A stretch of 64,000 nt of DNA from Octopus vulgaris (Eukaryota): assembly GCA_951406725.2 (NCBI GenBank), contig OX597842.1, positions 15,934,001 through 15,998,000 on the forward strand, written 5' to 3'. The translations under genes were made by a program, and so were the position numbers. This document shows, piece after piece, positions 6,985-59,543 of this stretch. The notes beneath the pieces were generated by a model. That model made no database searches and was not told the origin of the DNA. It saw only the letters and a program-made list of their open reading frames with translations. Within the stretch, counting starts at the first letter, position 1. Each line of letters opens with the position of its first letter.

Positions 6985-7353
6985 CGGCGGTTCTTAACCT
7001 GAGTCGTGTTGTAACAAAACAAAAATAAAAGGCAAATGTTAAAATGTTAAAATATAGGCAAATGTTAAAGCTACAATTCAGAAATAAGTGAGAGTTTTGA
7101 AGGATATGAAGAGGGGTCAGCAATTACAGAAATGGTGAGTGGCACTAAGATAGTAGAATAAGAAAACTAAGTGTATTAGGCGATAATTTCTCATTTTTTC
7201 CATAAACTTGTCATTATTTGACCATGATCTCGTTAAGAAAATAACACATATAATTAGAGTAAATCCCACTTTTTCGCAAGCGGTCGCACTCCCTTCAGAG
7301 TTACTGACGCACCCCCTGCCCCAGGGGTCGCGCTCCGAGGTTAAGAACCACTG
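6985..7353. mobile_element. hAT/Charlie-type MITE
   Basis: Terminal inverted repeats CGGCGGTTCTTAACCT (6985) and AGGTTAAGAACCACTG (to 7353), resembling Charlie CAGTGGTTCT ends. Confidence 0.65.
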
Positions 7354-7738
7354 ATCCCGAGGTAAACAACGTACATGATATAGACACTGAATTACACACT
7401 AATTTTTATACACTCCCATTCACTCATCCATACACTGAGACAGGTATTATATATAAACACAGGTATGCATTAACTATGCCTCCTCAAGTGTCACACTGAT
7501 ATATATATATATATATATACCACCTGTCAGAAATGCTACCACACTCACAGTCACAATCATTCGCATATATCTCCTATCTTAAAAGTGGACCCAGACTCAC
7601 ATTCACAAACATCCAAAACCAATAAAATGCATGTATAGAGAGACGGATGTAGACCTTAAATTGAAGTATGGAAAGACATTACGGATTTAGGAAGATATCT
7701 TCAGTGAAATAGTATAAAAGAAGATTGATTCAACTTAC

Positions 7739-7810
7739 AGAGTTTCTAAACTGGAGAGAGTTTGGAAAGTTGTTTCGTTGATTGCTTGGATATCGTTTTC
7801 AGCCAAATTC
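7739..7810 (-). CDS. LRR exon, type A (NLAENDIQAINETTFQTLSSLETL)
   Basis: 72 bp, ccag acceptor and gtaagtt donor, phase 2/2, typical 24-aa LRR. Confidence 0.9.
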
Positions 7811-8564
7811 CTGGAAATTAAAATTGTGTTAAAAACATTTATGGTAAGAAAGAGAATAAGATAATGAAGAAGTAGATAATGATGATGATGATGATGAAGA
7901 AGGAGCAGAAAAAGAAGAAGGAGAAGAAGAAAATAAAGAACAAGAAAAGAAGTAAAAGAAGAAGGGGAGGAGGAGGAAGAGGCGAGGGAGAAGAATAATA
8001 ATAAGAAGAAGAAAAAGAAGAGAATGAAGGAGAAGAGGAGCAACAAGTAGGAGATACTTCCAGAGAAGGAAACAAACACTAGTTGAGCGAAGTCCCTAAA
8101 TGGAAAAAAATGCATGAAAGACACCATCCAAGTACCTCCCCACAACACATACACACAACTATCTACTATAACACCAACATTACCAACGCCACCAGTATCG
8201 CTGCCAGCACCACCCGCCATACAAATATCCCCTTCGAAATCACCTTCGTAAATGTCCCTGCAATCCACATATTGAAGCCCTAATGAAATACATACATAAG
8301 ACTACCAACATCACACCAATAGATCACAGCACCTAACGCTTCACCTCAAATACAAATACTCAGCATAACTAACAACCCCTTAATTTCTTGAAACAAAATC
8401 TACCCCTTTGCGCTGGGAAATTTCCAAAGAACAATAACCAAAAGTTTTTACAAAACCTGATCGTGGAAACTCCTACAACCACCGAGAAGGGTGAGAGAGA
8501 CCATTCAACCTCGCCGCATCCCAAAATTAAGTTGTGCATCATTTTGTTTCTCTCATCATTGTTG

Positions 8565-9086
8565 TTCAAGCAAGGCAGTTTAAACGTGCGTGGACAGGGA
8601 TCAGTTTTCAAGTAAGGACGCTTTCTAAACGACCTCAGGTCACTGGATTTGGACGGTGTAGTCATTAGTGAAGCCAGACTGACCGGACCACAAGTTTTTT
8701 CTCTCCCCTCTATGGAGGATATGAGATGTAACGTTTCAGTGCCACCCGAGACAAGGCGATGAAACTGCAATTTGGTTCCAGAAAGGTCTAGATCTAGAGA
8801 TCAGTGTAGTCTTTGCGGACCCAGACGGCAATCTCGTCGTCCTTGATGTGAATGGTACTGATGGTGATGCTTTCAGACTGGTCGCTGTCTATGCACCAAC
8901 AAATGTTGGACAGTCAGATTATTTCAGGCGTCCGGAAGCTTTTTTGGGAATGTTGCGTAGTTTAGTATTAGTAGGTGATTTCACAGAATCCTAAGATGCA
9001 CGAATGGATTGTGAGGGGTCAAATGATAGAATTGGAAACAAATGCCTCACAAACCTGCTCAGACGTTTCCAGCTGTCTGAGAGGTA
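8565..9086 (+). mobile_element. Tx1/L1-like apurinic endonuclease fragment (repeated in each array unit)
   Basis: GSLNVRG..FLNDLRSLDLDGVVISEARL..FRLVAVYAPT..LVLVGDF, with stops. Confidence 0.8.
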
Positions 9087-9534
9087 TCGCGCTCCCTTCA
9101 GAGTTACTGACGCACCCCCTGCCCCAGGAGATGCGCTCCTAGGTGAAGAAGCACTGATCTCGAGGTAAACAACGTACATGATATAGACACTGAATTACAC
9201 ACTAATTTTTATACACTCCCATTCACGCATCCATACACCGAGACAGGTATTTATATATAAACACAGGTATGCATTAAATATGCCTCGTGAAGTGTCACAC
9301 TGATATATATATATACCAACTGTCAGAAATGCTACCACACTCACAGTCACAATCATTCGCATATATCTCCTATCTTAAAAGTGGATCCAGACTCACATTC
9401 ACAAACATCCCAAACCAATAAAATGCATGTATAGAGAGACGGATGTAGACCTTAAATTGAAGTATGGGAAGACATTACGCATTTAGGAAGATGTCTTCAG
9501 TGAAATAGTATAAAAGAAGATTGATTCAACTTAC

Positions 9535-9606
9535 AGATTTTCTAAACTGGAGAGATTTTGGAAAGTGTTTTCGTTGATTGCTTGGATATCGTTATAACTC
9601 AAATCC
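9535..9606 (-). CDS. LRR exon, type B (DLSYNDIQAINENTFQNLSSLENL)
   Basis: 72 bp, ccag/gtaagtt, phase 2/2. Confidence 0.9.
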
Positions 9607-11391
9607 CTGGTGAATAAAATTAAATCAAGAAGAACATTTATAGTAAGAAAAAGAAAAGGATGATGGAGAAGGAGTAGATATTGATGATGATGAAGAAGAA
9701 GAAGAAGAAGGAGAAGAAGAAAAAGAAGAAAGAGAAGAAGAAGAAGAAAAAGAAAAAGGAGAAGAAAAAGAAGTACAAGGAGAAGAAGAAGAAGAAGAAG
9801 AAGAAGAAGAAGAAGAGGGAGGCGGAAGCGAGGGAGAAGTAGAAGAAGAAGAAAAAGAAGAAGAAGAAGAAAAAGAAGAGAATGAAGGAGAAGAGGAGCA
9901 ACAAGTAGGAGATACTTCCAGAGAAGGAAACAAACACTAGTTGAGCGAAGTCCCTAATTGGAAAAAAATGCATGAAGAACACCATCCAAGCACCTCCCCA
10001 CAACACATACACACAACTATCTACTACAACACCAACATTACCAACACCACCAGTACCGCTGCCAGCAGCACCCGCCATACAAATATCCCCTTCGAAATCA
10101 CCTTCGTAAATTTCCCTGCAATCCACATATTGAAGCCCTAATGAAATACATACATAAGACTACCACCATCACACCAAAAGATCACAGCACCTAACGCTTC
10201 ACCTCAAATACAAATACTCAGCATAACTAACAACCCCTTAATTTCTTGAAACAAAATCTACCCCTTTGTGCTGGGAAATTTCCAAAGAACAATAACCAAA
10301 AGTTTTACAAAACCTGATCGTGGAAACTCCTACAACCACCGAGAAGGGTGAGAGAAACCATTCAACCTCGCCGCATCCCAAAATTAAGTTGTGCATCATT
10401 TTGTTTCTCTCATCATTGTTGTTCAAGCAAGGCAGTTTAAATGTGCGTGGACAGGGATCAGTTTTCAAGTAAGGACGCTTTCTAAACGACCTCAGGTCAC
10501 TGGATTTGGACGGTGTAGTCATTAGTGAAGCCAGACTGACCTGACCACAAGTTTTTTCTCTCCCCTCTATGGAGGATATGAGATGTAACGTTTCAGTGCC
10601 ACCCGAGACAAGGCGATGAAACTGCAATTTGGTTCCAGAAAGGTCTAGATCTAGAGATCAGTGTAGTCTTTGCGGACCCAGACGGCAATCTCGTCGTCCT
10701 TGATGTGAATGGTACTGATGGTGATGCTTTCAGACTGGTCGCTGTCTATGCACCAACAAATGTTGGACAGTCAGATTATTTCAGGCGTCCGGAAGCTTTT
10801 TTGGGAATGTTGCGTAGTTTAGTATTAGTAGGTGATTTCACAGAATCCTAAGATGCACGAATGGATTGTGAGGGGTCAAATGATAGAATTGGAAACAAAT
10901 GCCTCACAAACCTGCTCAGACGTTTCCAGCAGTCTGAGAGGTATCGCGCTCCCTTCAGAGTTACTGACGCACCCCCTGCCCCAGGGGATGCGCTCCTAGG
11001 TGAAGAAGCACTGATCTCGAGGTAAACAACGTACGTGATATAGACACTGAATTACACACTAATTTTTATACACTCCCATTCACGCATCCATACACCGAGA
11101 CAGGTATTTATATATAAACACAGGTATGCATTAAATATGCCTCGTGAAGTGTCACACTGATATATATATATACCAACTGTCAGAAATGCTACCACACTCA
11201 CAGTCACAATCATTCGCATATATCTCCTATCTTAAAAGTGGATCCAGACTCACATTCACAAACATCCAAAACCAATAAAATGCATGTATAGAGAGACGGA
11301 TGTAGACCTTAAATTGAAGTATGGGAAGACATTACGCATTTAGGAAGATATCTTCGGTGAAATAGTATAAAAGAAGATTGATTCAACTTAC

Positions 11392-11463
11392 AGATTTTCT
11401 AAACTGGAGAGATTTTGGAAAGTGTTTTCGTTGATTGCTTGGATATCGTTATAACTCAAATCC
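11392..11463 (-). CDS. LRR exon, type B
   Basis: 72 bp, intact splice sites. Confidence 0.9.
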
Positions 11464-13263
11464 CTGGTGAATAAAATTAAATCAAGAAGAACATTTATAG
11501 TAAGAAAAAGAAAAGGATGATGGAGAAGGAGTAGATATTGATGATGATGAAGAAGAAGAAGAAGAAGGAGAAGAAGAAAAAGAAGAAAGAGAAGAAGAAG
11601 AAGAAAAAGAAAAAGGAGAAGAAAAAGAAGTACAAGGAGAAGAAGAAGAAGAAGAAGAAGAAGAAGAAGAAGAAGAAGAAGAAGAAGAAGAGGGAGGCGG
11701 AAGCGAGGGAGAAGTAGAAGAAGTAGAAGGAGAAGAAGAAGAAAAAGAAGAGAATGAAGGAGAAGAGGAGCAACAAGTAGGAGATACTTCCAGAGAAGGA
11801 AACAAACACTAGTTGAGCGAAGTCCCTAATTGGAAAAAAATGCATGAAGGACACCATCCAAGCACCTCCCCACAACACATACACACAACTATCTACTATA
11901 ACACCAACATTACCAACACCACCAGTACCGCTGCCAGCAGCACCCGCCATACAAATATCCCCTTCGAAATCACCTTCGTAAATTTCCCTGCAATCCACAT
12001 ATTGAAGCCCTAATGAAATACATACATAAGACTACCACCATCACACCAAAAGATCACAGCACCTAACGCTTCACCTCAAATACAAATACTCAGCATAACT
12101 AACAACCCCTTAATTTCTTGAAACAAAATCTACCCCTTTGCGCTGGGAAATTTCCAAAGAACAATAACCAAAAGTTTTACAAAACCTGATCGTGGAAACT
12201 CCTACAACCACCGAGAAGGGTGAGAGAAACCATTCAACCTCGCCGCATCCCAAAATTAAGTTGTGCATCATTTTGTTTCTCTCATCATTGTTGTTCAAGC
12301 AAGGCAGTTTAAACGTGCGTGGACAGGGATCAGTTTTCAAGTAAGGACGCTTTCTAAACGACCTCAGGTCACTGGATTTGGACGGTGTAGTCATTAGTGA
12401 AGCCAGACTGACCGGACCACAAGTTTTTTCTCTCCCCTCTATGGAGGATATGAGATGTAACGTTTCAGTGCCACCCGAGACAAGGCGATGAAACTGCAAT
12501 TTGGTTCCAGAAAGGTCTAGATCTAGAGATCAGTGTAGTCTTTGCGGACCCAGACGGCAATCTCGTCGTCCTTGATGTGAATGGTACTGATGGTGATGCT
12601 TTCAGACTGGTCGCTGTCTATGCACCAACAAATGTTGGACAGTCAGATTATTTCAGGCGTCCGGAAGCTTTTTTGGGAATGTTGCGTAGTTTAGTATTAG
12701 TAGGTGATTTCACAGAATCCTAAGATGCACGAATGGATTGTGAGGGGTCAAATGATAGAATTGGAAACAAATGACTCACAAACCTGCTCAGACGTTTCCA
12801 GCAGTCTGAGAGGTATCGCGCTCCCTTCAGAGTTACTGACGCACCCTCTGCCCCAGCGGATGCGCTCCTAGGTGAAGAAGCACTGATCTCGAGGTAAACA
12901 ACGTACATGATATAGACACTGAATTACACACTAATTTTTATACACTCCCATTCACGCATCCATACACCGAGACAGGTATTTATATATAAACACAGGTATG
13001 CATTAAATATGCCTCGTGAAGTGTCACACTGATATATATATATACCAACTGTCAGAAATGCTACCACACTCACAGTCACAATCATTCGCATATATCTCCT
13101 ATCTTAAAAGTGGACCCAGACTCACATTCACAAACATCCAAAACCAATAAAATGCATGTATAGAGAGACGGATGTAGACCTTAAATTGAAGTATGGAAAG
13201 ACATTACGGATTTAGGAAGATATCTTCAGTGAAATAGTATAAAAGAAGATTGATTCAACTTAC

Positions 13264-13335
13264 AGAGTTTCTAAACTGGAGAGAGTTTGGAAAGTTGTTT
13301 CGTTGATTGCTTGGATATCGTTTTCAGCCAAATTC
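13264..13335 (-). CDS. LRR exon, type A
   Basis: 72 bp, intact splice sites, identical to 7739-7810. Confidence 0.9.
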
Positions 13336-15056
13336 CTGGAAATTAAAATTGTGTTAAAAACATTTATGGTAAGAAAGAGAATAAGATAATGAAGAAGTAG
13401 ATAATGATGATGATGATGATGAAGAAGGAGCAGAAAAAGAAGAAGGAGAAGAAGAAAATAAAGAACAAGAATAAGTAAAAGAAGAAGGGGAGGAGGAGGA
13501 AGAGGCGAGGGAGAAGAATAATAATAAGAAGAAGAAAAAGAAGAGAATGAAGGAGAAGAGGAGCAACAAGTAGGAGATACTTCCAGAGAAGGAAACAAAC
13601 ACTAGTTGAGCGAAGTCCCTAAATGGAAAAAAATGCATGAAAGACACCATCCAAGTACCTCCCCACAACACATACACACAACTATCTACTATAACACCAA
13701 CATTACCAACGCCACCAGTATCGCTGCCAGCACCACCCGCCATACAAATATCCCCTTCGAAATCACCTTCGTAAATGTCCCTGCAATCCACATATTGAAG
13801 CCCTAATGAAATACATACATAAGACTACCAACATCACACCAATAGATCACAGCACCTAACGCTTCACCTCAAATACAAATACTCAGCATAACTAACAACC
13901 CCTTAATTTCTTGAAACAAAATCTACCCCTTTGCGCTGGGAAATTTCCAAAGAACAATAACCAAAAGTTTTTACAAAACCTGATCGTGGAAACTCCTACA
14001 ACCACCGAGAAGGGTGAGAGAAACCATTCAACCTCGCCGCATCCCAAAATTAAGTTGTGCATCATTTTGTTTCTCTCATCATTGTTGTTCAAGCAAGGCA
14101 GTTTAAACGTGCGTGGACAGGGATCAGTTTTCAAGTAAGGACGCTTTCTAAACGACCTCAGGTCACTGGATTTGGACGGTGTAGTCATTAGTGAAGCCAG
14201 ACTGACCGGACCACAAGTTTTTTCTCTCCCCTCTATGGAGGATATGAGATGTAACGTTTCAGTGCCACCCGAGACAAGGCGATGAAACTGCAATTTGGTT
14301 CCAGAAAGGTCTAGATCTAGAGATCAGTGTAGTCTTTGCGGACCGAGACGGCAATCTCGTCGTCCTTGATGTGAATGGTACTGATGGTGATGCTTTCAGA
14401 CTGGTCGCTGTCTATGCACCAACAAATGTTGGACAGTCAGATTATTTCAGGCGTCCGGAAGCTTTTTGGGAATGTTGCGTAGTTTAGTATTAGTAGGTGA
14501 TTTCACAGAATCCTAAGATGCACGAATGGATTGTGAGGGGTCAAATGATAGAATTGGAAACAAATGCCTCACAAACCTGCTCAGACGTTTCCAGCTGTCT
14601 GAGAGGTATCGCGCTCCCTTCAGAGTTACTGACGCACCCCCTGCCCCAGGAGATGCGCTCCTAGGTGAAGAAGCACTGATCTCGAGGTAAACAACGTACA
14701 TGATATAGACACTGAATTACACACTAATTTTTATACACTCCCATTCACGCATCCATACACCGAGACAGGTATTTATATATAAACACAGGTATGCATTAAA
14801 TATGCCTCGTGAAGTGTCACACTGATATATATATATACCAACTGTCAGAAATGCTACCACACTCACAGTCACAATCATTCGCATATATCTCCTATCTTAA
14901 AAGTGGATCCAGACTCACATTCACAAACATCCCAAACCAATAAAATGCATGTATAGAGAGACGGATGTAGACCTTAAATTGAAGTATGGGAAGACATTAC
15001 GCATTTAGGAAGATGTCTTCAGTGAAATAGTATAAAAGAAGATTGATTCAACTTAC

Positions 15057-15128
15057 AGATTTTCTAAACTGGAGAGATTTTGGAAAGTGTTTTCGTTGAT
15101 TGCTTGGATATCGTTATAACTCAAATCC
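15057..15128 (-). CDS. LRR exon, type B
   Basis: 72 bp, intact splice sites. Confidence 0.9.
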
Positions 15129-16915
15129 CTGGTGAATAAAATTAAATCAAGAAGAACATTTATAGTAAGAAAAAGAAAAGGATGATGGAGAAGGAGTAGA
15201 TATTGATGATGATGAAGAAGAAGAAGAAGAAGGAGAAGAAGAAAAAAAGAAGAAAGAGAAGAAGAAGAAGAAAAAGAAAAAGGAGAAGAAAAAGAAGTAC
15301 AAGGAGAAGAAGAAGAAGAAGAAGAAGAAGAAGAAGAAGAGGGAGGCGGAAGCGAGGGAGAAGTAGAAGAAGAAGAAAAAGAAGAAGAAGAAGAAAAAGA
15401 AGAGAATGAAGGAGAAGAGGAGCAACAAGTAGGAGATACTTCCAGAGAAGGAAACAAACACTAGTTGAGCGAAGTCCCTAATTGGAAAAAAATGCATGAA
15501 GGACACCATCCAAGCACCTCCCCACAACACATACACACAACTATCTACTACAACACCAACATTACCAACACCACCAGTACCGCTGCCAGCAGCACCCGCC
15601 ATACAAATATCCCCTTCGAAATCACCTTCGTAAATTTCCCTGCAATCCACATATTGAAGCCCTAATGAAATACATACATAAGACTACCACCATCACACCA
15701 AAAGATCACAGCACCTAACGCTTCACCTCAAATACAAATACTCAGCATAACTAACAACCCCTTAATTTCTTGAAACAAAATCTACCCCTTTGCGCTGGGA
15801 AATTTCCAAAGAACAATAACCAAAAGTTTTACAAAACCTGATCGTGGAAACTCCTACAACCACCGAGAAGGGTGAGAGAAACCATTCAACCTCGCCGCAT
15901 CCCAAAATTAAGTTGTGCATCATTTTGTTTCTCTCATCATTGTTGTTCAAGCAAGGCAGTTTAAACGTGCGTGGACAGGGATCAGTTTTCAGGTAAGGAC
16001 GCTTTCTAAACGACCTCAGGTCACTGGATTTGGACGGTGTAGTCATTAGTGAAGCCAGACTGACCTGACCACAAGTTTTTTCTCTCCCCTCTATGGAGGA
16101 TATGAGATGTAACGTTTCAGTGCCACCCGAGACAAGGCGATGAAACTGCAATTTGGTTCCAGAAAGGTCTAGATCTAGAGATCAGTGTAGTCTTTGCGGA
16201 CCCAGACGGCAATCTCGTCGTCCTTGATGTGAATGGTACTGATGGTGATGCTTTCAGACTGGTCGCTGTCTATGCACCAACAAATGTTGGACAGTCAGAT
16301 TATTTCAGGCGTCCGGAAGCTTTTTTGGGAATGTTGCGTAGTTTAGTATTAGTAGGTGATTTCACAGAATCCTAAGATGCACGAATGGATTGTGAGGGGT
16401 CAAATGATAGAATTGGAAACAAATGCCTCACAAACCTGCTCAGACGTTTCCAGCAGTCTGAGAGGTATCGCGCTCCCTTCAGAGTTACTGACGCACCCCC
16501 TGCCCCAGGGGATGCGCTCCTAGGTGAAGAAGCACTGATCTCGAGGTAAACAACGTACGTGATATAGACACTGAATTACACACTAATTTTTATACACTCC
16601 CATTCACGCATCCATACACCGAGACAGGTATTTATATATAAACACAGGTATGCATTAAATATGCCTCGTGAAGTGTCACACTGATATATATATATACCAA
16701 CTGTCAGAAATGCTACCACACTCACAGTCACAATCATTCGCATATATCTCCTATCTTAAAAGTGGATCCAGACTCACATTCACAAACATCCAAAACCAAT
16801 AAAATGCATGTATAGAGAGACGGATGTAGACCTTAAATTGAAGTATGGGAAGACTTTACGCATTTAGGAAGATATCTTCGGTGAAATAGTATAAAAGAAG
16901 ATTGATTCAACTTAT

Positions 16916-16987
16916 AGATTTTCTAAACTGGAGAGATTTTGGAAAGTGTTTTCGTTGATTGCTTGGATATCGTTATAACTCAAATCC
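16916..16987 (-). pseudogene. LRR exon type B with inactivated splice donor (GT>AT)
   Basis: Plus strand reads caacttaT at 16915 versus caacttaC in all other copies. Confidence 0.75.
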
Positions 16988-18786
16988 CTGGTGAATAAAA
17001 TTAAATCAAGAAGAACATTTATAGTAAGAAAAAGAAAAGGATGATGGAGAAGGAGTAGATATTGATGATGATGAAGAAGAAGAAGAAGAAGGAGAAGAAG
17101 AAGAAGAAGAAAGAGAAGAAGAAGAAGAAAAAGAAAAAGGAGAAGTAAAAGAAGTACAAGGAGAAGAAGAAGAAGAAGAAGAAGAAGAAGAAGAAGAAGA
17201 AGAAGAAGAAGAAGAAGGGAGGCGGAAGCGAGGGAGAAGTAGAAGAAGTAGAAGAAGAAGAAGAAGAAAAAGAAGAGAATGAAGGAGAAGAGGAGCAACA
17301 AGTAGGAGATACTTCCAGAGAAGGAAACAAACACTAGTTGAGCGAAGTCCCTAATTGGAAAAAAATGCATGAAGGACACCATCCAAGCACCTCCCCACAA
17401 CACATACACACAACTATCTACTATAACACCAACATTACCAACACCACCAGTACCGCTGCCAGCAGCACCCGCCATACAAATATCCCCTTCGAAATCACCT
17501 TCGTAAATTTCCCTGCAATCCACATATTGAAGCCCTAATGAAATACATACATAAGACTACCACCATCACACCAAAAGATCACAGCACCTAACGCTTCACC
17601 TCAAATACAAATACTCAGCATAACTAACAACCCCTTAATTTCTTGAAACAAAATCTACCCCTTTGCGCTGGGAAATTTCCAAAGAACAATAACCAAAAGT
17701 TTTACAAAACCTGATCGTGGAAACTCCTACAACCACCGAGAAGGGTGAGAGAAACCATTCAACCTCGCCGCATCCCAAAATTAAGTTGTGCATCATTTTG
17801 TTTCTCTCATCATTGTTGTTCAAGCAAGGCAGTTTAAACGTGCGTGGACAGGGATCAGTTTTCAAGTAAGGACGCTTTCTAAACGACCTCAGGTCACTGG
17901 ATTTGGACGGTGTAGTCATTAGTGAAGCCAGACTGACCGGACCACAAGTTTTTTCTCCCCTCTATGGAGGATATGAGATGTAACGTTTCAGTGCCACCCG
18001 AGACAAGGCGATGAAACTGCAATTTGGTTCCAGAAAGGTCTAGATCTAGAGATCAGTGTAGTCTTTGCGGACCCAGACGGCAATCTCGTCGTCCTTGATG
18101 TGAATGGTACTGATGGTGATGCTTTCAGACTGGTCGCTGTCTATGCACCAACAAATGTTGGACAGTCAGATTATTTCAGGCGTCCGGAAGCTTTTTTGGG
18201 AATGTTGCGTAGTTTAGTATTAGTAGGTGATTTCACAGAATCCTAAGATGCACGAATGGATTGTGAGGGGTCAAATGATAGAATTGGAAACAAATGACTC
18301 ACAAACCTGCTCAGACGTTTCCAGCAGTCTGAGAGGTATCGCGCTCCCTTCAGAGTTACTGACGCACCCTCTGCCCCAGCGGATGCGCTCCTAGGTGAAG
18401 AAGCACTGATCTCGAGGTAAACAACGTACATGATATAGACACTGAATTACACACTAATTTTTATACACTCCCATTCACGCATCCATACACCGAGACAGGT
18501 ATTTATATATAAACACAGGTATGCATTAAATATGCCTCGTGAAGTGTCACACTGATATATATATATACCAACTGTCAGAAATGCTACCACACTCACAGTC
18601 ACAATCATTCGCATATATCTCCTATCTTAAAAGTGGATCCAGACTCACATTCACAAACATCCCAAACCAATAAAATGCATGTATAGAGAGACGGATGTAG
18701 ACCTTAAATTGAAGTATGGGAAGACATTACGCATTTAGGAAGATGTCTTCAGTGAAATAGTATAAAAGAAGATTGATTCAACTTAC

Positions 18787-18858
18787 AGATTTTCTAAACT
18801 GGAGAGATTTTGGAAAGTGTTTTCGTTGATTGCTTGGATATCGTTATAACTCAAATCC
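18787..18858 (-). CDS. LRR exon, type B (first LRR exon in transcript order)
   Basis: 72 bp, intact splice sites. Confidence 0.9.
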
Positions 18859-20774
18859 CTGGTGAATAAAATTAAATCAAGAAGAACATTTATAGTAAGA
18901 AAAAGAAAAGGATGATGGAGAAGGAGTAGATATTGATGATGATGAAGAAGAAGAAGAAGGAGAAGAAGAAAAAGAAGAAAGAGAAGAAGAAGAAGAAAAA
19001 GAAAAAAGAGAAGAAAAAGAAGTACAAGGAGAAGAAGAAGAAGAAGAAGAAGAAGAAGAAGAATAAGAAGAAGAGGGAGGCGGAAGCGAGGGAGAAGTAG
19101 AAGAAGTAGAAGAAGAAGAAGAAGAAAAAGAAGAGAATGAAGGAGAAGAGGAGCAACAAGTAGGAGATACTTCCAGAGAAGGAAACAAACACTAGTTGAG
19201 CGAAGTCCCTAATTGGAAAAAAATGCATGAAGGACACCATCCAAGCACCTCCCCACAACACATACACACAACTATCTACTATAACACCAACATTACCAAC
19301 ACCACCAGTACCGCTGCCAGCAGCACCCGCCATACAAATATCCCCTTCGAAATCACCTTCGTAAATTTCCCTGCAATCCACATATTGAAGCCCTAATGAA
19401 ATACATACATAAGACTACCACCATCACACCAAAAGATCACAGCACCTAACGCTTCACCTCAAATACAAATACTCAGCATAACTAACAACCCCTTAATTTC
19501 TTGAAACAAAATCTACCCCTTTGCGCTGGGAAATTTCCAAAGAACAATAACCAAAAGTTTTACAAAACCTGATCGTGGAAACTCCTACAACCACCGAGAA
19601 GGGTGAGAGAAACCATTCAACCTCGCCGCATCCCAAAATTAAGTTGTGCATCATTTTGTTTCTCTCATCATTGTTGTTCAAGCAAGGCAGTTTAAACGTG
19701 CGTGGACAGGGATCAGTTTTCAAGTAAGGACGCTTTCTAAACGACCTCAGGTCACTGGATTTGGACGGTGTAGTCATTAGTGAAGCCAGACTGACCGGAC
19801 CACAAGTTTTCTCTCCCCTCTATGGAGGATATGAGATTTAACGTTTCAGTGGCACACGAGACAAAGCGATGAAACTGCAATTTGGTTCCAGAAAGGTCTA
19901 GATCTAGAGATCAGTGTAGTCTTTGCGGACCCAGACGGCAATCTCGTCGTCCTTGATGTGAATGGTACTGATGGTGATGCTTTCAGACTGGTCGCTGTCT
20001 ATGCACCAACAAATGTTGGACAGTCAGATTATTTCAGGCGTCCGGAAGCTTTTTTGGGAATGTTGCGTAGTTTAGTATTAGTAGGTGATTTCACAGAATC
20101 CTAAGATGCACGAATGGATTGTGAGGGGTCAAATGATAGAATTGGAAACAAATGCCTCACAAACCTGCTCAGACGTGTAGTCGGTGTAGTCATTAGTGAA
20201 GCCAGACTGACCGGACAACAAGTTTTTTCTCGCCCCTCTATGGAGGATATGAGATGTAACGTTTCAGTGCCACCCGAGACAAGGCGATGAAACTGCAATT
20301 TGGTTTCAGAAAGGTCTAGATCTAGAGATCAGTGTAGTCTTTGCGGAACCATACGGCAATCTCGTCGTCCTTGATGTGAATGGTACTGATGGTGATGCTT
20401 TCAAACTGGTCGCTGTCTATGCACCAACAAATGTTGGACAGTCAGATTATTTCAGGCGTCCGGAAGCTTCTTTGGGAATGTTGCGTAGTTTAGTATTAGT
20501 AGGCGATTTCACAGAATCCTAAGATGCACGAATGGATTGTGAGGGGTCAAATGATAGAAGTGGAAACAAATGCCTCACAAATCTGCTCAGACGTTTCCAG
20601 CTGTCTGACGGTTATCGCGCTCCCTTCAGAGTTACTGACGCACCCCCTGCCCCAGGGGAATCGCTCCTAGGTGAAGAAGCACTGATCTCGAGGTAAACAA
20701 CGTACATGATATAGACACTGAATTACACACTAATTTTTATACACTCCCATTCACTCATCCATACACTGAGACAT

Positions 20775-20830
20775 ATATGATTCAACTTCCTGGAGAATAA
20801 AATTGTGTTAAGAACATTTATGGTAAGAAA
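20775..20830 (-). other. Empty cassette: LRR exon deleted, flanks fused
   Basis: gattcaactt joined directly to cctggagaataaaattgtgtt. Confidence 0.85.
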
Positions 20831-22779
20831 AAGAAAAAGATGATGGAGAAGAAGTAGATAATGATGATGATGAAGAAGAAGAAGAAGAAGAAGAAGAAGA
20901 AGAAGAAGAAGACGACGAAGAAGAAGAAAAAGAAGAAAAAGAAGAAGGAGAAGAAGGAGGAGGAGGCGAGGGAGAAGAAGAAGAAGAAGAAGAGGAAGAT
21001 AAAGAACAAGAAGAAGGGAAAGAGGGAGAAGAGGAGAAACAAGTAGGAGATACTTCCAGAGAAGGAAACAAACACTAGTTGAGCGAAGTCCCTAAATGGA
21101 AAAACTGCCCTAAAGACACCATCCAAGCACCTCCTCACGACACATACACACAACTATCTTCTATAACACCAACATTACGAACACCACCAATACCGCTGCC
21201 AGCACCACCCGCCATACAAATATCCCCTTCGAAATCACCTTCGTAAATTTCCCTGCAATCCACATATTGAAGCCCTAATGAAATACATACAAAAAACTAC
21301 CAACATCACACCAAAAGATCACAGCACCTAACGCTTCACCTCAAATATAAATACTCAGCATAGCTAACAACGCCTTAATTTCTTGAAAAGAAATCTACCC
21401 CTTGGCGCTGGGAAATTTCCAAAGAACAATAACCAAAGTTTTATACAAAACCTGATCGTGGAAACTCCTACAACCACCGAGAAGGGTGAGAGAAACCATT
21501 CACCCTCGCAGCAGCCCCAAAACTAAGTTGTGCATCATTTTGTTTTCCCATTTCTCTCATCATTGTTTTGCTCAAGCAAGGCAGTTTAAACGTGCGTGGA
21601 CAGGGATCATGTTTCAAGTAAGGACGCTTTCTAAACAACCTCGGGTCACTGGATTTGGACGGTGTAGTCATTAGTGAAGCCAAACTGACCGGACCACAAG
21701 TTTTTTCTCGCAGCTCTTTGGAGGATACGAGATCTAACGATTCAGTGGCACCCGAGACAAGGCGAGGGAACTGCAAGTTGGTTCCAGATTTTTCTTGTGT
21801 GTCCAAACATGTATAATTTATGTTAAATATTTAAATCTACAAAAGGGAACCTGCTTTAAGGGGGTGGGTTCCAGGAATATACATATCGCCCTTTGGGGAA
21901 GAATTTCTATCCTCTTTTGTGTACTGTGAGTTTGATTTATAGCACTAATTTTTTTTATTCTTCTAAACGTTACCTCTCGCCCTGGAAAAGGAAACACCCC
22001 ATCCCCCCCAAAGTAAAATTAGGAAAAATATTTCTTCCACTTCTGCAATGCGAACAAGAGGTAACATGTAAAAAGTATCGGCAAATGAAATCACGACGGA
22101 GAATATTTCGAACGTCACTACAGTCAGTAAATCACTTGATACTAGCGAGATAAAGAAACAAATTCGACAGTCACGGTTTCTCTTCCGTACCAAAACTCTA
22201 CCAAGAAACGCTCAACATAAATATGGATGATTTTTAAAATATCAAATATCCAATCAAAAGAAAAGGAACAAATTTCACATTGACCCCCGCCCTCGGTTAT
22301 ATCACACAACCCACTTCATGTAGAGCTGTCACCTACAAAAAGCTAATTTCAAATGACGAAGTCCACAGGGACTCTACAGACAGTAGTTCTCCTGCCGACC
22401 AACTTCGGTCGGCGAGTTCCAACGATAAAAATTGAGGAGGTTCCTCCAGAATTTCACATCTTTTGGGAAATAGCATCCGCGTTACTCGACATCAAAGAAG
22501 ATAAAAAAGATAAATAAACGAAATACACCAACAGAATTGGTGGGCAGCAGGAAGGGAAGATTTTGATATATATGGCCAAAACGCAGCATGGACTTCACGG
22601 AATTCCTTGCTGGCCTTCCACGACTCTTGGCGATAAAAGCCACAGAAGTATGGGATAACTTTGCTGGCTGCACGGTGTGCAAGTCGTCGGTTGTGGATAG
22701 TATTTCGTATGAAAGTTATTATAGTATGCATGCCAGACCTGTTTGAATGCATTTTGGCAGATATCTAGGGCAACTGGTA

Positions 22780-28270: not shown

Positions 28271-28824
28271 CCTCTGCCACGCGTTCCATCACTCATTTGA
28301 ATTGTCCGCCTCTCAGTAAAAGCGTACAAAAGAACGTTTAACATGCTTTAAATCAGCCGCACGATCCACGAACATTATTTCTCATTAGATTGACTTATAG
28401 ATCCGTCGCTGGTTTTCTACAGTAGAACTAGAGAACAGTATTTCGATTAGTACCATTTAGAATTATATTTATCAGAATATGTTTCCATTTTATACTCTCC
28501 TTCATAACAACAATACTTGCAACACGTTATGCTAACAGTTTTCCTACTCGCCGTTCCCTGAATATTTCCATAATGAGTGTTGATGTAATAAACTAGCATC
28601 ATCAAAGTTCAGATATTGTAAATTATAGATTCCATTTCAGTCAGCATGTACAATGGACCAGTCTATCTGACTTCACAGCAGTTAACATATTTGCCCTTTT
28701 TACTCCAACATAAGATCACGTTTTAAAGCTGAGATCAAAAACATAATGTATTAGTTAAGAACATAACCAACGGGAATTTAAAGCATTGAATGTGGAAACT
28801 ATATAGAAATGGTCTAATACTTAC

Positions 28825-29006
28825 AAATATTCAACATTCGGTGGAATGGGTTGCGGGATCGAAGTGAGTTGCCGAGATGAACAATCTATATTTGTCTCAG
28901 AATTTCGACAGCTACATATTGAGCAAATGTCTGATGCAGCATGAGACTCCAAAGAGAAACTCATAGAGAGTATCAACACAAACGTCAATTTCAATTGTTG
29001 GAACAT
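28825..29006 (-). CDS. First coding exon of LRR gene: signal peptide + LRRNT cap
   Basis: MFQQLKLTFVLILSMSFSLESHA-ASDICSICSCRNSETNIDCSSRQLTSIPQPIPPNVEYL; acceptor ttttacag at 29027, donor gtaagt at 28824, phase 2 matching the LRR exons. Confidence 0.92.
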
Positions 29007-29276
29007 ATTTTCAGGCGTTGATTAATCTGTAAAAGAAGAAAATACAAAATACCAGAAACTTCAATGTCAATTCTTTCCCATTGCAAATTCTTCGTAGGAC
29101 AAGATTTGGCCCCTGTTCCATGAGATGACTTTATCTTTGATTTCACTTTCAGTTTAATATTTAAACTTACGAAACTGAATTCAATGATAATTCAATGTGG
29201 TGAACATAAATCATTGAGAGATAACGTCGAAGATAAACTGAACATCAGTCGCCCCTGCATACACATGCACACACAA

Positions 29277-35015: not shown

Positions 35016-35426
35016 CTTAATAATAACTGGGTATATTGGGCTTCGTATAGTTTACCCGTATATTTTACCCGTGTCACTTTGTTGGCATGCACTGCTCTCT
35101 TACTCAATCGTAATAATAATCCTTTCTTGTTTAAGCACAAGGCCTGAAATTTAAGGGGGCGGGAATAGTGGATTACATTGACCCCAGTACCCAACTATTA
35201 CTTAATTTAACGGAGCCGAAAGGGTGAAAGACAACGTCGACATCGTTGAAAGTAATAATAATAATAATGATAATGATAATCCTTTGTACTAAAGGTACAA
35301 AGCCTGAAATTTCGGGGCTGGGGATATATTAATCAATCAATCGTAATGCAAGGCATCTATTTTCATTGCTACATCAAAATTGTGACATATGAAAAGAACC
35401 TAGTGAGAAAAAAATTAGAGACTTAC

Positions 35427-35500
35427 CTGAGAAGAAAGGCAATATTCGGCTGGTCATTTTCTAAAAATATTGATCTGATGGTTAGTTTCGCTACTTTAAT
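35427..35500 (-). other. Candidate non-coding first exon of the LRR gene
   Basis: Perfect CAG|GTAAGT donor at 35426 in unique sequence; the ATG exon has an acceptor, so an upstream exon is needed; 5' boundary unknown. Confidence 0.35.
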
Positions 35501-49192: not shown

Positions 49193-49525
49193 ATCCACAC
49201 AAGAAGACACAAAAAAACACAGCAACGTGAGGACGTGGAACAAATAAAGTATTATTGGACGCTCAGGAAAGAAGGGTAGATGGAGGCCTTAACGTGTCGA
49301 GCGGAGCTCTTCGTCGGAATCATAGGAGAAGGAAAGACCCCGAGAAGGGAAGACAGAGGTGGTGGTACTCACGAGGTCACATATAGATAGATAGATATAT
49401 ACACACACACACACATACACATATATATATACGCATATATGTATCTACAGATATATATGTATGTAAAACAATATATATACACACATATATATATTATGTA
49501 TGTACTTATATAACCATGTATGAAT

Positions 49526-49588
<63 letters not shown>

Positions 49589-49872
49589 CGTGTATGTGCG
49601 TATATATGTATGTATATAGGTATATGTATGTGTATATACGTATATAAGAATGTATGTACGTTTATATATATATATATGTGTGTGTGTGTGCGTATATATG
49701 TATATGTATGTGTATGTATCTATGTATATGTATGTGTATGTATTTACATATATATGCATGTATAAATATATATGTATGTACGTATACATGCATGTATATA
49801 TATATATCTTTATGTATGTACGTATATATGTATGTATGTATATATATATATGTGTGTACGTATATGTTTATG

Positions 49873-49904
<32 letters not shown>

Positions 49905-49923
49905 TATGCATGTGTATATTATT

Positions 49924-49976
<53 letters not shown>

Positions 49977-49977
49977 T

Positions 49978-50008
<31 letters not shown>

Positions 50009-51300
50009 TTAAGAGAGAAAGAGAGAGAGAGAATGTGTGTTCCGAAACAAAGCCAACCGAAGATTCGAGCTTAAATGACTATAAATGTGATGAGATGTAA
50101 AAGTCATACATCATTATAGATGTTTTGTGTCCCTTCTTTTTATTGCAGATTTATAAATTAATGGCTAGTCTCTTAATCTCTCTCTCTCTCTATCTATCTA
50201 TAAACGGCACACCAAGTTTTCAATTATTATTCACCTCTTTTTCCTTTACAAATCTACACCTTTATATAATCATTTTATTTCGTCATCTATTCTGCTGGTA
50301 ATTCCAGAGAAAGTAGCAACATTTTCTAAATTTAACAAATTATTACATAGACTATTGCTTCAAATACAATATATAAATATAACCTCTAAACATATATTTA
50401 AAATCTAATCTTTTAAGACTTCAGAGAATTTTTAAGTCTTGGAATGTCAGGATACAATTTTTGAAGTTGAAATATTCAAACATTGCCGTAATTTTATAAT
50501 CAATAAATATATTTCAAATTTAACAATTAAAATATATCAAAGATATGGTTTCTGTTGTTGAGGTTTAATTCTCGTCTTGTAATCCTATGGACTAAGACGC
50601 TTTCGCCATGACCGACCCATAACTTGTCATTGTCTAACATGTTTAATTCACGCAGCAGTTTAGAAACTCCGCTGTGCGTTAGTAATAGAGTTTATAGTAA
50701 TTCTAGACAATGTAATGGAATTCTCAGAACCCATCAATCTGATAAATAATGTTTAAGATTAAGAGAAAACAAATTTAATGCATTCCACTTTAAAATGTTA
50801 ACATAGTATAACGATGTGGAGAAAGAAATGTATGCTGTCAACCACTTTTAAAATGTTTAAACAATTCATACTGTTCCCTACAAGATGTAAATATTATTTA
50901 AATTACCAGAGCAGTTACATTTAGATGCAAAATTAAATGAATATTAAAACAGAAATCGTTTTAAAGAACGAAAGAAAAGATCAATTAAATGAGGCGTTAA
51001 ACAAATTTAGAATTTCACTTCAGAATTAGAAATTCACTGGAAACTACATACAATAGTATATAATTAGATGAATATTTTCATTTCTTTAATTTCCATCAAA
51101 TTAATTTTTTTCCGTAGTTGTAACTAGTCTATATTTGACTATAAATGTTATAGTTGTAATTTAATGCTTGTAAAATGTATTTAAAATAAATACATACATG
51201 CATACATATATACATACATGTATGCATGCATGGATTCACACATACATACATACATATATACATACATAAACACACACACACATATATATATATGTATATA

Positions 51301-51357
<57 letters not shown>

Positions 51358-52039
51358 TATAAATAATGAGGGAGATAAATTCAATATTAATTTAATTAAT
51401 ATCAATTTAAATGTTTTGCGTTGTAAATGTATTAGTATATTGTTAATTAGAGTAATTATGAAATAATATTCACCAAATTGGAAGTGTTTCGAATTCAGCC
51501 TGAAGTTTTTCTGTCTCTTGAATGTTCACAATATTCAAACAGCAGAGAGATTTTTGACTTCTGCAACGGTCGCTACGCAATTATGAAATGCCAGGACGAA
51601 GATTATAAACGTGTGGGTGTTAGTTTGTTCTGTGCGTGTATCTTTGTTTAAACGTGTCTATGTGTAAGTATGTATGTTGTACTGTCATGGTATATGGTGT
51701 ATGTGTGTATATATGTCCGTAGTGTGAATGTATTCTTGATTAAAGGTATATGTGTGTATATTGCAGCGTGTCTGTTAGCGAGTAAACAGAGACTACCAGT
51801 CTCAAATAACCACATACTGAATAATATCTCTCCCGCAACTCCTATTCGTAGCTACATTCTTTCTTTCTTTCTCTCACTCTCTCTCTCTCGCTCTCTGTCA
51901 TCAACAACGTGGCCACCACCACCACAATCAGTCCACCCATTTCCATACAGACATTTCATCTTTGTAAACAAATCTTTTTTTTCTATTTTGTATACGGAAA
52001 AAAGTTCAAACAATGATATATTTAAATTCATATATACAC

Positions 52040-52622
52040 ACACAAACACATTCATACATACAGACATACATGCATACATACTTACATGCATGCATGCAGG
52101 CATACATACATAAATACATACATACATGCATGAATGCATGCATGCATACATACATGCATGCATACATACATATATACATACATACATGCATGCATGTACA
52201 CATGCATACATACATACTTGTATGCATACATGCATACATACATACATGCATACATAGATGCATGCATACACAAATACATACATGCACGTATGCATGCATA
52301 CTTACATACATACATGCATGCATACATAATTGCATGCATGCATACATACCTACATACATACATGCATACATACATGCATACATACATGCATGCATACATA
52401 CATGCACACATACATACTTGCATACATGCATACATACATACATACATGCATACATACATGCATGCAAACATACATACATGCATGCATACATAATTGCATG
52501 CATGTATACATACAGGCATGCATACATACATACATACATACATACATACATGCATGCATGCATACATACATGCATACATACATTCATACATACATTCATG
52601 CATGCATTCACACATAAATACA

Positions 52623-52658
<36 letters not shown>

Positions 52659-52660
52659 TA
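52040..52660. repeat. (TACA/TGCA)n compound microsatellite
   Basis: Direct reading. Confidence 0.9.
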
Positions 52661-52774
52661 TATAAATAATGAGGGAGATAAATTGAATATTAGTTTTAAT
52701 TAAGATCAGTTTAAAACCAGTAGCCTAGCATATAAAAGTCTGAAAAATCTGAGAAAATTATAATACATGTGTAT

Positions 52775-52945
52775 ATTAAGGGCTAAACATCGGTATGTGG
52801 ACAGCCATATGTTAGAAATAGATCACCTATTATCAAACTACAAAGAAAGAATGTTCTCTAGGGAACATTCTTTCTTTGTAGTTTGATCGTAGGTGATCTA
52901 TTTCTAGCACATAGCTGTCCACAAGGTGATTTTTAGCTCTTAATG
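52775..52945. repeat. Imperfect palindrome (~80-bp arms); paralog at 61960-62085
   Basis: ...ctacaaagaaagaatgttc-tcta-gggaacattctttctttgtag... Confidence 0.8.
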
Positions 52946-52960
52946 TACACATGTACATTT

Positions 52961-53007
<47 letters not shown>

Positions 53008-53008
53008 C

Positions 53009-53056
<48 letters not shown>

Positions 53057-53064
53057 TATACACC

Positions 53065-53108
<44 letters not shown>

Positions 53109-53114
<6 letters not shown>

Positions 53115-53205
53115 ATTAGGGTTCAGCGAAGATTTGCTTTACCACATACGCAGTTCAGAAACTTCGGTATGTGGTAAAGCAAATCTTCGCTGAACCCCAA
53201 TTATA
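53109..53205. repeat. Palindrome (~42-bp arms) beside (TA)n, probably an inverted PLE terminus
   Basis: gggttcagcgaagatttgctttaccacatac / gtatgtggtaaagcaaatcttcgctgaaccc. Confidence 0.8.
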
Positions 53206-53329
53206 AAGTATTACTTAAGTTTATCGTGAAATGGTCCTTTTTTCATGCCGAATTCTACTTGGTGAAATTATTAATTACGTCTTAATTAATTAATTTTACC
53301 CTTTCTTATTATATATATGTATATATATG

Positions 53330-53362
<33 letters not shown>

Positions 53363-53844
53363 TTATATATATATATATATATACATTTATATATATGAAA
53401 TTTATAGAAAAAACAAAAGCCGGAGTCAGGTGTAGGAATAATAAGCAAGTGTATTAGTTTGATATTCCGGAAAAATACATGTGTGTGTGTATGCGGATGT
53501 GTGTGTGTATATGTGTGTCTATGTCTCTGCGTTTGTGGTTGTTTCCTCCTCGTCACCACTTAACAACCGGTATTGGTGTGTGTACGCCTCGTAACTTAGC
53601 GGTTTGGTAAATAAGACCGATAGAACACGTACCAGATTATTTCTAAAACAAATCAGTTCTATTTGTTCCACTAAAACACTTCAAGGTGTTGCTCTAGCAT
53701 GGCCGCACTCAAAAAAGGGAAACATGTAAACGAATAAAAGAATATATACACACTTATATACACACACAGACGTACGCAAACACACATACCTTTTTCGGAA
53801 GAGTTGTGATCACCTTGAATATTGTATAAACTAAGCTCATTTTG

Positions 53845-54910
53845 TGGAGGCACATGGCCTGGTGGCCAGAGCAGCGAACTTGCGGTCGAGGGTCGAGTGT
53901 CGCTGGTTCGATTCTCAGACCAGGCTATATGTGTGTTTATGAGTGGAACACCTCAGAAGGCAATGGAGAACTTCTGATGATTCTTTCACCACAACTTTCT
54001 CTCACTCTTTCCTCCTGCATCTTGCAGCTCACCTGCGACGGACCGGGGTTTCGTCAAAGTGGGGAACCTATACGCCAAGGAAACCGGGAAACCGGTCCTA
54101 TGAACCAGGCATTGCGTGAGAAGGAACAAACAAGTTCAGTATTATTATTATTAATATTATTCTGGTCATTCGTCTGTCTTTACGTTCTGAGTTCAAATTC
54201 CGCCGGGGTCGACTTTGCCTTTCATCCTTTCGGAGTCGGTAAATTAAGTACCAGTTGCGTACTGGGGTCGATCTAATCGACTGGTCCCCTCCCCTTGTGT
54301 CTAGAGTAGACAAGAAAAGAATCATGTAAGGCGGCCAGCTTGCAGAATCGTTAGCACACCGGACCAAATGCTTAGCAGCATTTCGTCCGTCTTTACGTTC
54401 TGTGTTCAAATCCCACTGATGTTGACATTTCCTTTCGATAAGATAAGAAGCCTCTGAGATCTGTGGTCGAAATAATCGATATAGCCCCCTCCCAAAACCT
54501 ATCAGCTTTCTACCAAAACTTGAAATTCTTATCACTAAATTGAAGATGGAAACTAGGGAGAATCCTTACCGTAACAGGATGCTTATGTCATCTCTTCCTG
54601 ATCTTTAAGTTCTGAGTTCAAATCCTACTGAGGTCAACTTTCCTTTCATCTTCCAGGGATCAATAAAATAGGTATCAGTTGTGTACTGAGGTCGATGAAA
54701 TCAACTTTCTCCTTTCTAACAAAATTGTAGGCCTTGTGCCTAGATTAGAAAGGATTGTCATTTATTGAGTCGGAGAAAATGATTAACAACCTTTTTTACC
54801 GGCTCATTACGTTCTGAGTTCAAATGACACCAAGGTTGACTTTGTCCGCCATCCTTTAAGGGTCAATATATTAAGAAATAGTCAAGTCCTGAGGTCGATG
54901 TGATCAACTT
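53845..54910 (+). mobile_element. Cluster of tRNA-derived SINEs
   Basis: A/B-box-like head at 53845-53920 (TGGCCTGGTGG..GGTTCGATTC); four copies of GTTCTG(A/T)GTTCAAAT at about 54180, 54395, 54610, 54810. Confidence 0.75.
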
Positions 54911-55418: not shown

Positions 55419-56262
<844 letters not shown>

Positions 56263-57703: not shown

Positions 57704-57738
<35 letters not shown>

Positions 57739-58710: not shown

Positions 58711-58764
<54 letters not shown>

Positions 58765-59400: not shown

Positions 59401-59502
59401 AAAAGGAGTGAAAGAGTATGTATGTGTATATATGTACATATATATGTATGTACGTACACATATATGTATATATATATATCTGTATGTATGTACGTATGTA
59501 TG

Positions 59503-59543
<41 letters not shown>

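What the first reader, a model, noticed from the sequence alone, without database searches (positions are those of the whole stretch)
7739..9606. A and B cassettes differ only at amino-acid-changing codons, concentrated on the concave face
Seen: A and B exons differ at 9 of 72 nt, in six codons (N/D, A/S, E/Y, T/N, T/N, T/N). All six change the residue, there is no purely silent difference, and most of the unit is nearly identical. Four of the six changes fall on x positions of LxxLxLxxN (LETL-NLAEN vs LENL-DLSYN), the established ligand-contact surface of LRR solenoids. The intron splits this motif, so each beta-strand is assembled from two neighbouring exons and exon order creates new surfaces. 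Inference: diversifying selection. Caveat: the acceptor-side flank and GAA tract also differ between A and B, and the counts are small.
Basis: partly seen in the sequence, partly recalled or inferred. Interest (0 to 1): 0.75.

Follow-up and report, generated by a model that had tools for sequence, protein, structure and literature searches.

The report
Fast-evolving LRR exons, octopus adhesion receptor
These are copy-and-paste one-repeat exons from a large octopus family of adhesion-type cell-surface receptor genes, in which the five positions predicted to face the ligand change about ten times faster than silent DNA, likely because selection keeps reshaping what the receptors recognise; the two exon types flagged here are too few to show this alone, and this gene copy has no receptor tail in the assembly.

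Summary
Observation confirmed: A and B differ at 9 of 72 nt in six codons, all amino-acid changing, four at x3/x5/x7/x8. Alone this is not significant against silent sites (p=0.19). A and B did not diverge inside this array: each is closer to exons of other genes, and the five B and two A copies are identical within type. The exons lie behind a signal-peptide/LRRNT exon (28827-29026) in a cluster of at least 14 octopus LRR-adhesion-GPCR genes. The signal is uneven: a held-out set gave 3.6% vs 2.0% (n.s.) at the strict cut and 14% vs 4% at the loose one. This copy has no GAIN/7TM exons before the next gene (truncated duplicate or misassembly); RNA-like contigs show splicing of paralogs only. 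The expansion is in print (Ritschard 2019); site-level selection was not found in five searches. The scan reported this family before on eight other windows.

The parts
7739..7810 (-). LRR exon type A (A1), 72 nt, phase 2-2
   Evidence: AG/GT scan; LRR_8 E 0.001, below Pfam's curated cut-off
9535..9606 (-). LRR exon type B (B1)
   Evidence: LRR_8 E 6e-05, below Pfam's curated cut-off
11392..11463 (-). LRR exon type B (B2), identical to B1
13264..13335 (-). LRR exon type A (A2), identical to A1
15057..15128 (-). LRR exon type B (B3)
16916..16987 (-). B-type exon with donor GT changed to AT (likely skipped or dead)
18787..18858 (-). LRR exon type B (B4), first LRR exon in transcript order
7271..20176 (.). 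Tandem array of seven ~1.86-kb units (exon, GAA tract, decayed LINE-like fragment, label recalled). A/B differences lie between about -509 and +221 of the exon start; the rest is about 99% identical
20776..21788 (-). Eighth, partial unit whose exon is deleted (acceptor flank fused to donor flank near 20790)
   Evidence: sequence; alignments
28827..29026 (-). First coding exon: ATG at 29006, signal-peptide-like N-terminus (read by eye) and LRRNT, phase-2 donor
   Evidence: LRRNT E 5e-05, below cut-off; RNA-like contigs of paralogs cover exactly 28824-29029
35422..35440 (-). Donor of a non-coding 5' exon (exon ends at 35427; start not defined)
   Evidence: a loose end in X16 at 29027 matches it with 3 substitutions, read by eye

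Best explanation
A and B are two pre-existing types of one-repeat LRR exon from an octopus adhesion-GPCR gene cluster, copied into a recent seven-unit array likely by unequal crossing-over, and their differences at the predicted ligand-facing positions are likely the trace of diversifying selection acting on the whole family rather than on this array. Shown: every LRR exon is 72 nt and phase 2-2, so exons can be gained, lost or skipped in frame; intact LRR exon number runs from 5 to at least 31 per gene in the stretches fetched; nonsynonymous change piles up at x2, x3, x5, x7, x8 while silent sites, framework codons and introns stay close; complete paralogs carry GAIN/GPS and 7TM exons; paralogs are spliced in RNA-like contigs. 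Inferred: each beta-strand takes x2-x3 from one exon and x5-x7-x8 from the next, so exon order and skipping make new binding surfaces; point mutation plus conversion between paralogs supplies variants and a changing ligand (microbial or self/non-self) selects them. The window's gene is a recent duplicate of the complete gene at C29:13.98-13.84 Mb. It breaks off inside a LINE 6.4 kb past its eighth LRR exon, so on this haplotype it is probably a truncated copy (secreted LRR-only product or pseudogene) whose full-length allele may be the gap-bounded contig at C29:13.118 Mb.
For: Disjoint pairs chosen on intron flanks only (35 pairs, flanks at most 5% apart): concave pN 100.8/412, silent 14.2/497, framework pN 5/574, other pN 28/933, p=7e-24. 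With 126 exons, 45 pairs, five random matchings: 16-19% vs 2-3%; within genes 19.5%, between genes 16.5%. ML codon model on 89 of 94 exons: omega 10.9 (exon+flank trees) and 11.9 (exon trees), LRT 128; site omegas x5 11.6, x7 10.3, x8 11.6, x2 6.0, x3 15.8, next x10 2.8. Silent sites inside the concave codons are not raised (4.2/113), which argues against local hypermutation. Downstream exons show dN/dS 0.38-0.59 in 6 of 7 types. GPS E 8e-17 and 7tm_2 E 9e-14 for a cluster paralog. Sister gene 98.2% identical over 10 kb, with one broken A-type exon where the window has seven units and open GAIN, GPS, TM1-7 exons. Exon-only cover and exon-to-exon loose ends in X2, X3, X16. O. sinensis models P0002-P0004 hold an A-type exon and differ by skipping of single LRR exons.
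Against: A vs B alone p=0.19. Held-out exons: 5 new-new pairs 1/61 concave vs 1/73 silent; 14 pairs with at least one new exon 3.6% vs 2.0%, p=0.35; significant only at the 10% cut (22 pairs, 14.4% vs 4.3%, p=3e-5). Two genes carry much of the within-gene signal; without them it is 10.1% vs 3.0%, p=0.008. The 3 within-window pairs show 0 differences. GPS exon dN/dS 1.21. Conversion among paralogs breaks the tree assumption, and disjoint pairs still share ancestry. No ligand or tissue evidence. All RNA-like contigs covering 28954 differ from the window's letter there, so transcription of this copy is not shown.
Confidence: 0.75

Rival explanations
1. The A/B pattern is a by-product of mosaic ancestry and small numbers: two diverged paralog exons were joined in an array of a dead, truncated gene, and nothing about this locus is under selection now.
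For: p=0.19; acceptor flank 9/41 diverged; A and B each closer to other genes' exons; one dead donor and one deleted exon among eight units; no 3' exons in 214 kb.
Against: It explains the status of this copy but not where the differences fall: the same five codons vary in most exon classes. Six of seven array exons, the next LRR exon and the first coding exon are open with intact splice sites. It is compatible with the best explanation for the present state of the array.
Confidence: 0.4
2. The gene is whole in the animal; its 3' half is the gap-bounded contig at C29:13,117,662-13,135,921 and what follows it, split off by misassembly or by an inversion allele.
For: That contig starts at an N gap and overlaps C29:15,925,920-15,933,150 with 67 mismatches in 7305 nt, closer than the sister paralog does. 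It continues with two LRR exons in the same order as the sister gene, and no first coding exon was found for it among 40 scored of 48 candidates.
Against: No gap at the break in the window's contig; the break lies in a LINE and borders an inverted duplication with 97-98.6% arms, which looks more like a real rearrangement; a second gap separates that contig from the GAIN/7TM exons.
Confidence: 0.35
3. A targeted mutational or short-tract conversion process at exon edges, not selection, raises variation at these codons, which all lie within 13 nt of a splice site.
For: The five codons flank the splice sites; multi-nucleotide codon changes are common; the -20..-4 acceptor stretch is slightly more diverged than distal flank (3.5% vs 1.8-2.1%); the LRRNT differs from the sister gene at 15/108 nt with flanks at 5/300.
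Against: The interleaved codons L6, N9 and L1 stay near zero (pN 0.00-0.01), and silent sites within concave codons are 3.8%. A positional mutator would hit these too.
Confidence: 0.08
4. The array is a VLR-like germline cassette store, rearranged somatically into an expressed receptor.
For: 24-aa LRR modules with concave hypervariability; VLR structures among sequence hits; an incomplete gene beside many cassettes.
Against: Cassettes have canonical splice sites and are joined exon to exon in RNA-like contigs in genomic order (read by eye); VLRs rank below ALS, LRRC15, TLR and LGR hits; nothing here tests DNA rearrangement.
Confidence: 0.03

Closest known systems
Octopus-specific adhesion GPCR expansion 'group 3' (Ritschard et al. 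2019, PMC6408891; passages and section 12 read, supplements not read)
   Same: Octopus adhesion GPCRs with GPS and 7TM, LRR in 5 of 22 sequences, tandem clusters, branch-level positive selection.
   Different: That paper found no single sites under selection and, in the passages read, does not describe one-LRR exons, repeat-number variation or truncated members. Placement of this cluster in group 3 was not tested.
Ectocarpus ROCO LRR exon shuffling (PMC3341825, passages read; PMC11378527, search listing only)
   Same: One LRR per 72-nt exon, dead exons among live ones, variable repeat number, positively selected sites on the concave face, high gene birth and death.
   Different: Intracellular ROC-COR GTPases of brown algae; here the LRRs are extracellular (signal peptide, LRRNT) on a GAIN/7TM receptor. 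Convergent design, not the same family.
[quoted passage not shown]
   Same: 24-residue LRR modules whose concave face is hypervariable.
   Different: VLRs are assembled somatically with cytidine deaminases; these are germline exons joined by splicing.
ADGRA/GPR125-type adhesion GPCRs (LRR, Ig, HRM, GAIN; PMC2571103 abstract start, rest recalled)
   Same: LRR ectodomain on GAIN/GPS/7TM; weak HRM match (E 0.029, below cut-off).
   Different: No Ig match in P0005 or P0007; multi-copy and fast-evolving rather than single-copy. Database names for cluster proteins are 'ADGRG6-like' and 'LRRC4-like'.

Membership tests
Adhesion GPCR (cluster paralogs) | GPS motif / GAIN domain | tested here: met
   GPS E 8e-17 for the exon at C29:13,163,713 and 2e-14 for P0007; GAIN E 0.002, below cut-off; open GAIN and GPS exons in the sister gene
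Adhesion GPCR (cluster paralogs) | Secretin-type 7TM | tested here: met
   7tm_2 hits on C29, E 9e-14; TM1-7 exons open in the sister gene
Adhesion GPCR (the window's own gene) | GAIN/GPS and 7TM exons downstream in the same gene | tested here: not met
   None between C29:15,932,360 and the next gene's first coding exon at 15,726,076; assembly split possible
Ritschard 2019 group 3 | Phylogenetic placement in the group-3 clade | not tested
   Group-3 sequences and table S3 were not retrieved
Typical extracellular LRR (LRR_8) with LRRNT cap | LxxLxLxxNxL 24-aa repeat forming parallel strands, N-terminal cysteine cap | tested here: met
   LRR_8 E 2e-29 for P0004; strands in model m77405daa47f4, mean pLDDT 71.9, single sequence; single exons and LRRNT match below curated cut-offs
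Ectocarpus ROCO-type exon-shuffling receptors | One LRR per 72-nt exon, with inactive exons interspersed | tested here: met
   94 intact of 115 hits, 32 of 41; B* and the deleted eighth unit
Ectocarpus ROCO-type exon-shuffling receptors | Positive selection on concave-face residues | tested here: met
   weak in held-out pairs
Ectocarpus ROCO-type exon-shuffling receptors | ROC-COR GTPase domain | tested here: not met
   Pfam scans of P0005 and P0007 gave GPS/GAIN/7tm_2 and no ROC or COR family
Variable lymphocyte receptor | Somatic DNA assembly from germline cassettes | not testable with these tools
   Only assembled contigs were available; splice sites and exon joins point to splicing
ADGRA | Ig domain between LRR and HRM | tested here: not met
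   No Ig family at E up to 0.01 in P0005 or P0007; both are imperfect gene models

The most novel reading that the evidence does not exclude
Octopuses have turned an adhesion GPCR into a germline variable-recognition system: dozens of genes build their binding arm from interchangeable one-LRR exons, retune five contact positions under strong selection, make new strands by exon order and skipping, and come as full 7TM signalling forms, as forms cut after a short hydrophobic tail (three paralogs share the same stop) and as LRR-only forms such as this one, an inherited counterpart of lamprey VLRs in a mollusc.
Probability: 0.3. Interest if true: 0.85.

Novelty: new variant of a known kind. Interest (0 to 1): 0.58.

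Why it matters
Adhesion GPCRs are usually thought of as conserved receptors (recalled). An omega near 11 confined to five ligand-facing positions, with in-frame exon gain, loss and skipping, is the signature of receptors in an arms race or in self/non-self recognition. It names concrete candidate genes and residues for the open question of how cephalopods recognise microbes, self or chemical cues. The published analysis of the octopus expansion found no selected sites (PMC6408891). The flagged A/B pair is only a small and partly misleading sample of this, and the scan has already recorded the family on other windows.

Tried and rejected
No further LRR exon exists in the window beyond the seven. 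An LGR/GRL101 (7tm_1) reading was dropped: no 7tm_1 match between 13.0 and 16.5 Mb of C29 among 150 listed of 152 (147 of 7996 candidates scored), while 7tm_2 exons follow the arrays. A protein search with 40 aa around exon B found nothing (37 candidates). Splicing of the array into the next gene across 214 kb was judged unlikely because that gene has its own first coding exon. The within-class count was set aside as biased (classes were defined on codons 5-21) and replaced by flank-defined pairs. Run search: no RNA holder on record was listed; the contigs laid are 'RNA?' guesses and cannot rank expression or show absence. No fold comparison was obtained. No TIR search was run. No terminal exon or AATAAA/ATTAAA was seen in the first 0.66 kb after the exon at C29:15,932,360; further sequence was not examined for this. 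The nearby look-up of earlier findings returned nothing.

Full report
Observation. On the minus strand, 7739-7810 (A) and 9535-9606 (B) are AG|72 nt|GT exons in phase 2 that encode one 24-residue LRR. They differ at 9 nt in six codons, all amino-acid changing, 8.5 N and 0.5 S by Nei-Gojobori. Four are at x5, x7, x8, x3 (chance 0.036 among 16 non-framework codons). Against silent sites the pair is not significant (p=0.19). Against unique intron sequence it is (9/72 vs about 15/460, p=0.002), but the 41 nt before the acceptor differ at 9 positions, so the exon sits in a diverged block (about -509 to +221) inside otherwise ~99% identical units.

The array. Seven ~1.86-kb units run from 7271 to 20176; in transcript order they are B, B*, B, A, B, B, A. 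All five B exons are identical, both A exons are identical, B* has GT changed to AT, and an eighth partial unit near 20790 has lost its exon. A is 4 nt from an exon at C29:15,403,425 (donor flank 1/190) and B is 3 nt from exons at 15,692,301 and 15,083,002, against 9 nt between A and B. O. sinensis models already hold an exon with A's N-A-E and E-T surface residues. A and B are therefore older paralog types united in a young array.

The gene. The window is C29:15,934,001-15,998,000 of a 2.8-Gb genome; proteins labelled Octopus vulgaris come from a contig of the same length. A first coding exon with signal-peptide-like start and LRRNT lies at 28827-29026 and a non-coding exon ends at 35427. One more LRR exon lies 1.6 kb outside the window. 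Fourteen such first exons map to C29:13.26-16.28 Mb among 40 scored of 48 candidates. Neighbouring genes continue into GAIN, GPS and 7tm_2 exons, so this is an LRR adhesion-GPCR cluster; the HRM label rests on a weak match (E 0.029). The closest paralog (13.98-13.84 Mb) is 98.2% identical over 10 kb, has one broken A-type exon where the window has seven units, and has open GAIN, GPS and TM1-7 exons. The window's gene has no LRR, GAIN or TM exon in the next 214 kb, and the next gene has its own start. It breaks inside a LINE at 15,925,920 beside an inverted duplication. A gap-bounded 18-kb contig at 13.118 Mb overlaps the last 7.3 kb with 67 mismatches and goes on into two more LRR exons. Truncated copy and split assembly both remain open.

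Selection test. A DNA profile gave 115 hits in the first 100 loci plus the window; 94 intact exons were kept, and 21 were dropped (19 with broken splice site, frame or stop, one antisense hit, one half-deleted exon). Pairs were chosen on intron flanks only. In 35 disjoint pairs with both flanks at most 5% apart, flanks differ by 2%, silent sites by 14.2/497, framework N sites by 5/574, other N sites by 28/933 and the five concave positions by 100.8/412 (p=7e-24). A codon model on 89 of the 94 exons gave omega 10.9-11.9 for those positions, 0.25-0.27 for framework and 1.2-1.3 for the rest, LRT 128; fitted site by site, the top five are x3, x8, x5, x7, x2, then x10. Downstream exons gave dN/dS 0.38-0.59 in 6 of 7 types and 1.21 for the GPS exon. 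A held-out set (41 hits, 32 intact) was weaker: 5 new-new pairs showed no excess; 14 pairs with a new exon gave 3.6% vs 2.0% (p=0.35) and 22 pairs at the 10% cut gave 14.4% vs 4.3% (p=3e-5). With all 126 exons the excess is 16-19% vs 2-3% over five matchings, present within and between genes, weaker (10% vs 3%) without the two strongest genes, and absent among the window's own three near-identical pairs. Conversion among paralogs limits the tree-based figure, and the pairs share ancestry.

Structure and RNA. A single-sequence AF2 model of O. sinensis P0004 (pLDDT 71.9) puts strands at 60-68, 84-92, 108-113 and 132-136, each starting before and ending after an exon join. That these x positions face the ligand rests on known LRR structures (PMC3341825 passages; otherwise recalled). 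Contigs of X2, X3 and X16 cover only the exons, and their loose ends, read by eye, are first-exon-to-LRR, LRR-to-LRR and non-coding-exon joins, some matching junctions predicted in neighbouring genes. They carry paralog letters, and all differ from the window at 28954, so expression of this copy is not shown. P0002 and P0003 differ from P0004 by loss of one LRR exon each; these are database models whose support I did not see.

Mechanism. Shown: symmetric exons, variable number, concave excess, splicing in paralogs. Inferred: unequal crossing-over between unit repeats changes exon number; conversion and point mutation supply variants; selection by a changing ligand fixes them; exon order and skipping pair x2-x3 with different x5-x7-x8. 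The ligand is unknown; immune or self/non-self recognition is my best guess, neural adhesion or chemosensing the alternative.

Known and new. Ritschard et al. 2019 (PMC6408891; passages and section 12) report an octopus adhesion-GPCR expansion with LRRs in 5 of 22 sequences and no selected sites; their supplements were not read. The design matches Ectocarpus ROCO genes (PMC3341825) but not their family. Five searches listed no paper on one-LRR exons or concave-face selection in octopus adhesion GPCRs; most subscription papers are outside the library. Eight earlier scan notes describe the same family elsewhere in this genome; my reading was written before I saw them, and they are not independent support. 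Verdict: real, a new variant of a known kind; the family-level signal is strong, and the flagged pair is a weak, inherited sample of it in a copy of doubtful integrity.

Noticed in passing
G000 C29:13,461,127 (L109), 14,925,893 (L104), 15,553,551 (L043): Three paralogs share a TM1 exon that stops in frame after a short hydrophobic stretch, and no TM2-7 exon was found after them; P0007 ends there. Two of them have 22 and at least 26 intact LRR exons. Possibly GPI-anchored or shed forms (inferred).
   Followed up: partly
window 7739-7810 and 9535-9606: The two non-concave changes move an N-glycosylation sequon: A has it at exon codon 11, B at codon 17. Of 19 exons of this class 14 have only codon 17, 2 only codon 11, 2 both and 1 none.
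   Followed up: partly
window 28827-28934: The LRRNT differs from the sister gene at 15 of 108 nt while the signal part (1/92) and flanks (5/300) barely differ; it resembles another paralog's LRRNT (P0007), which suggests conversion or selection on the cap.
   Followed up: partly
P0007, between the LRR region and GAIN: Cysteine-rich segment ending CCxxxxCN, like a Ly6/three-finger module (motif recalled); no Pfam match at E up to 0.01.
   Followed up: no
G000 C29:15,895,937-15,927,613 (L003-L006): Inverted duplication with ~16-kb arms at 97-98.6% identity next to the point where the gene breaks; similar palindromes at 13,128,497-13,135,921 and around 13.19 Mb.
   Followed up: partly
G000 C29:14,081,697 (L036), 15,174,523 and 15,175,807 (L138): Some LRR exons also read as AG..72 nt..GT LRR-like frames on the opposite strand; probably chance near-palindromy.
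   Followed up: no
G000 C9:28.2-28.9 Mb: More than 20 single-frame 7tm_2 genes of 600-700 codons in tandem; may be the Methuselah-like group 4 of PMC6408891.
   Followed up: no
window 49378-64000 and L007-L008: Several kb-scale segments are repeated two or three times at 84-96% identity upstream of the gene.
   Followed up: no
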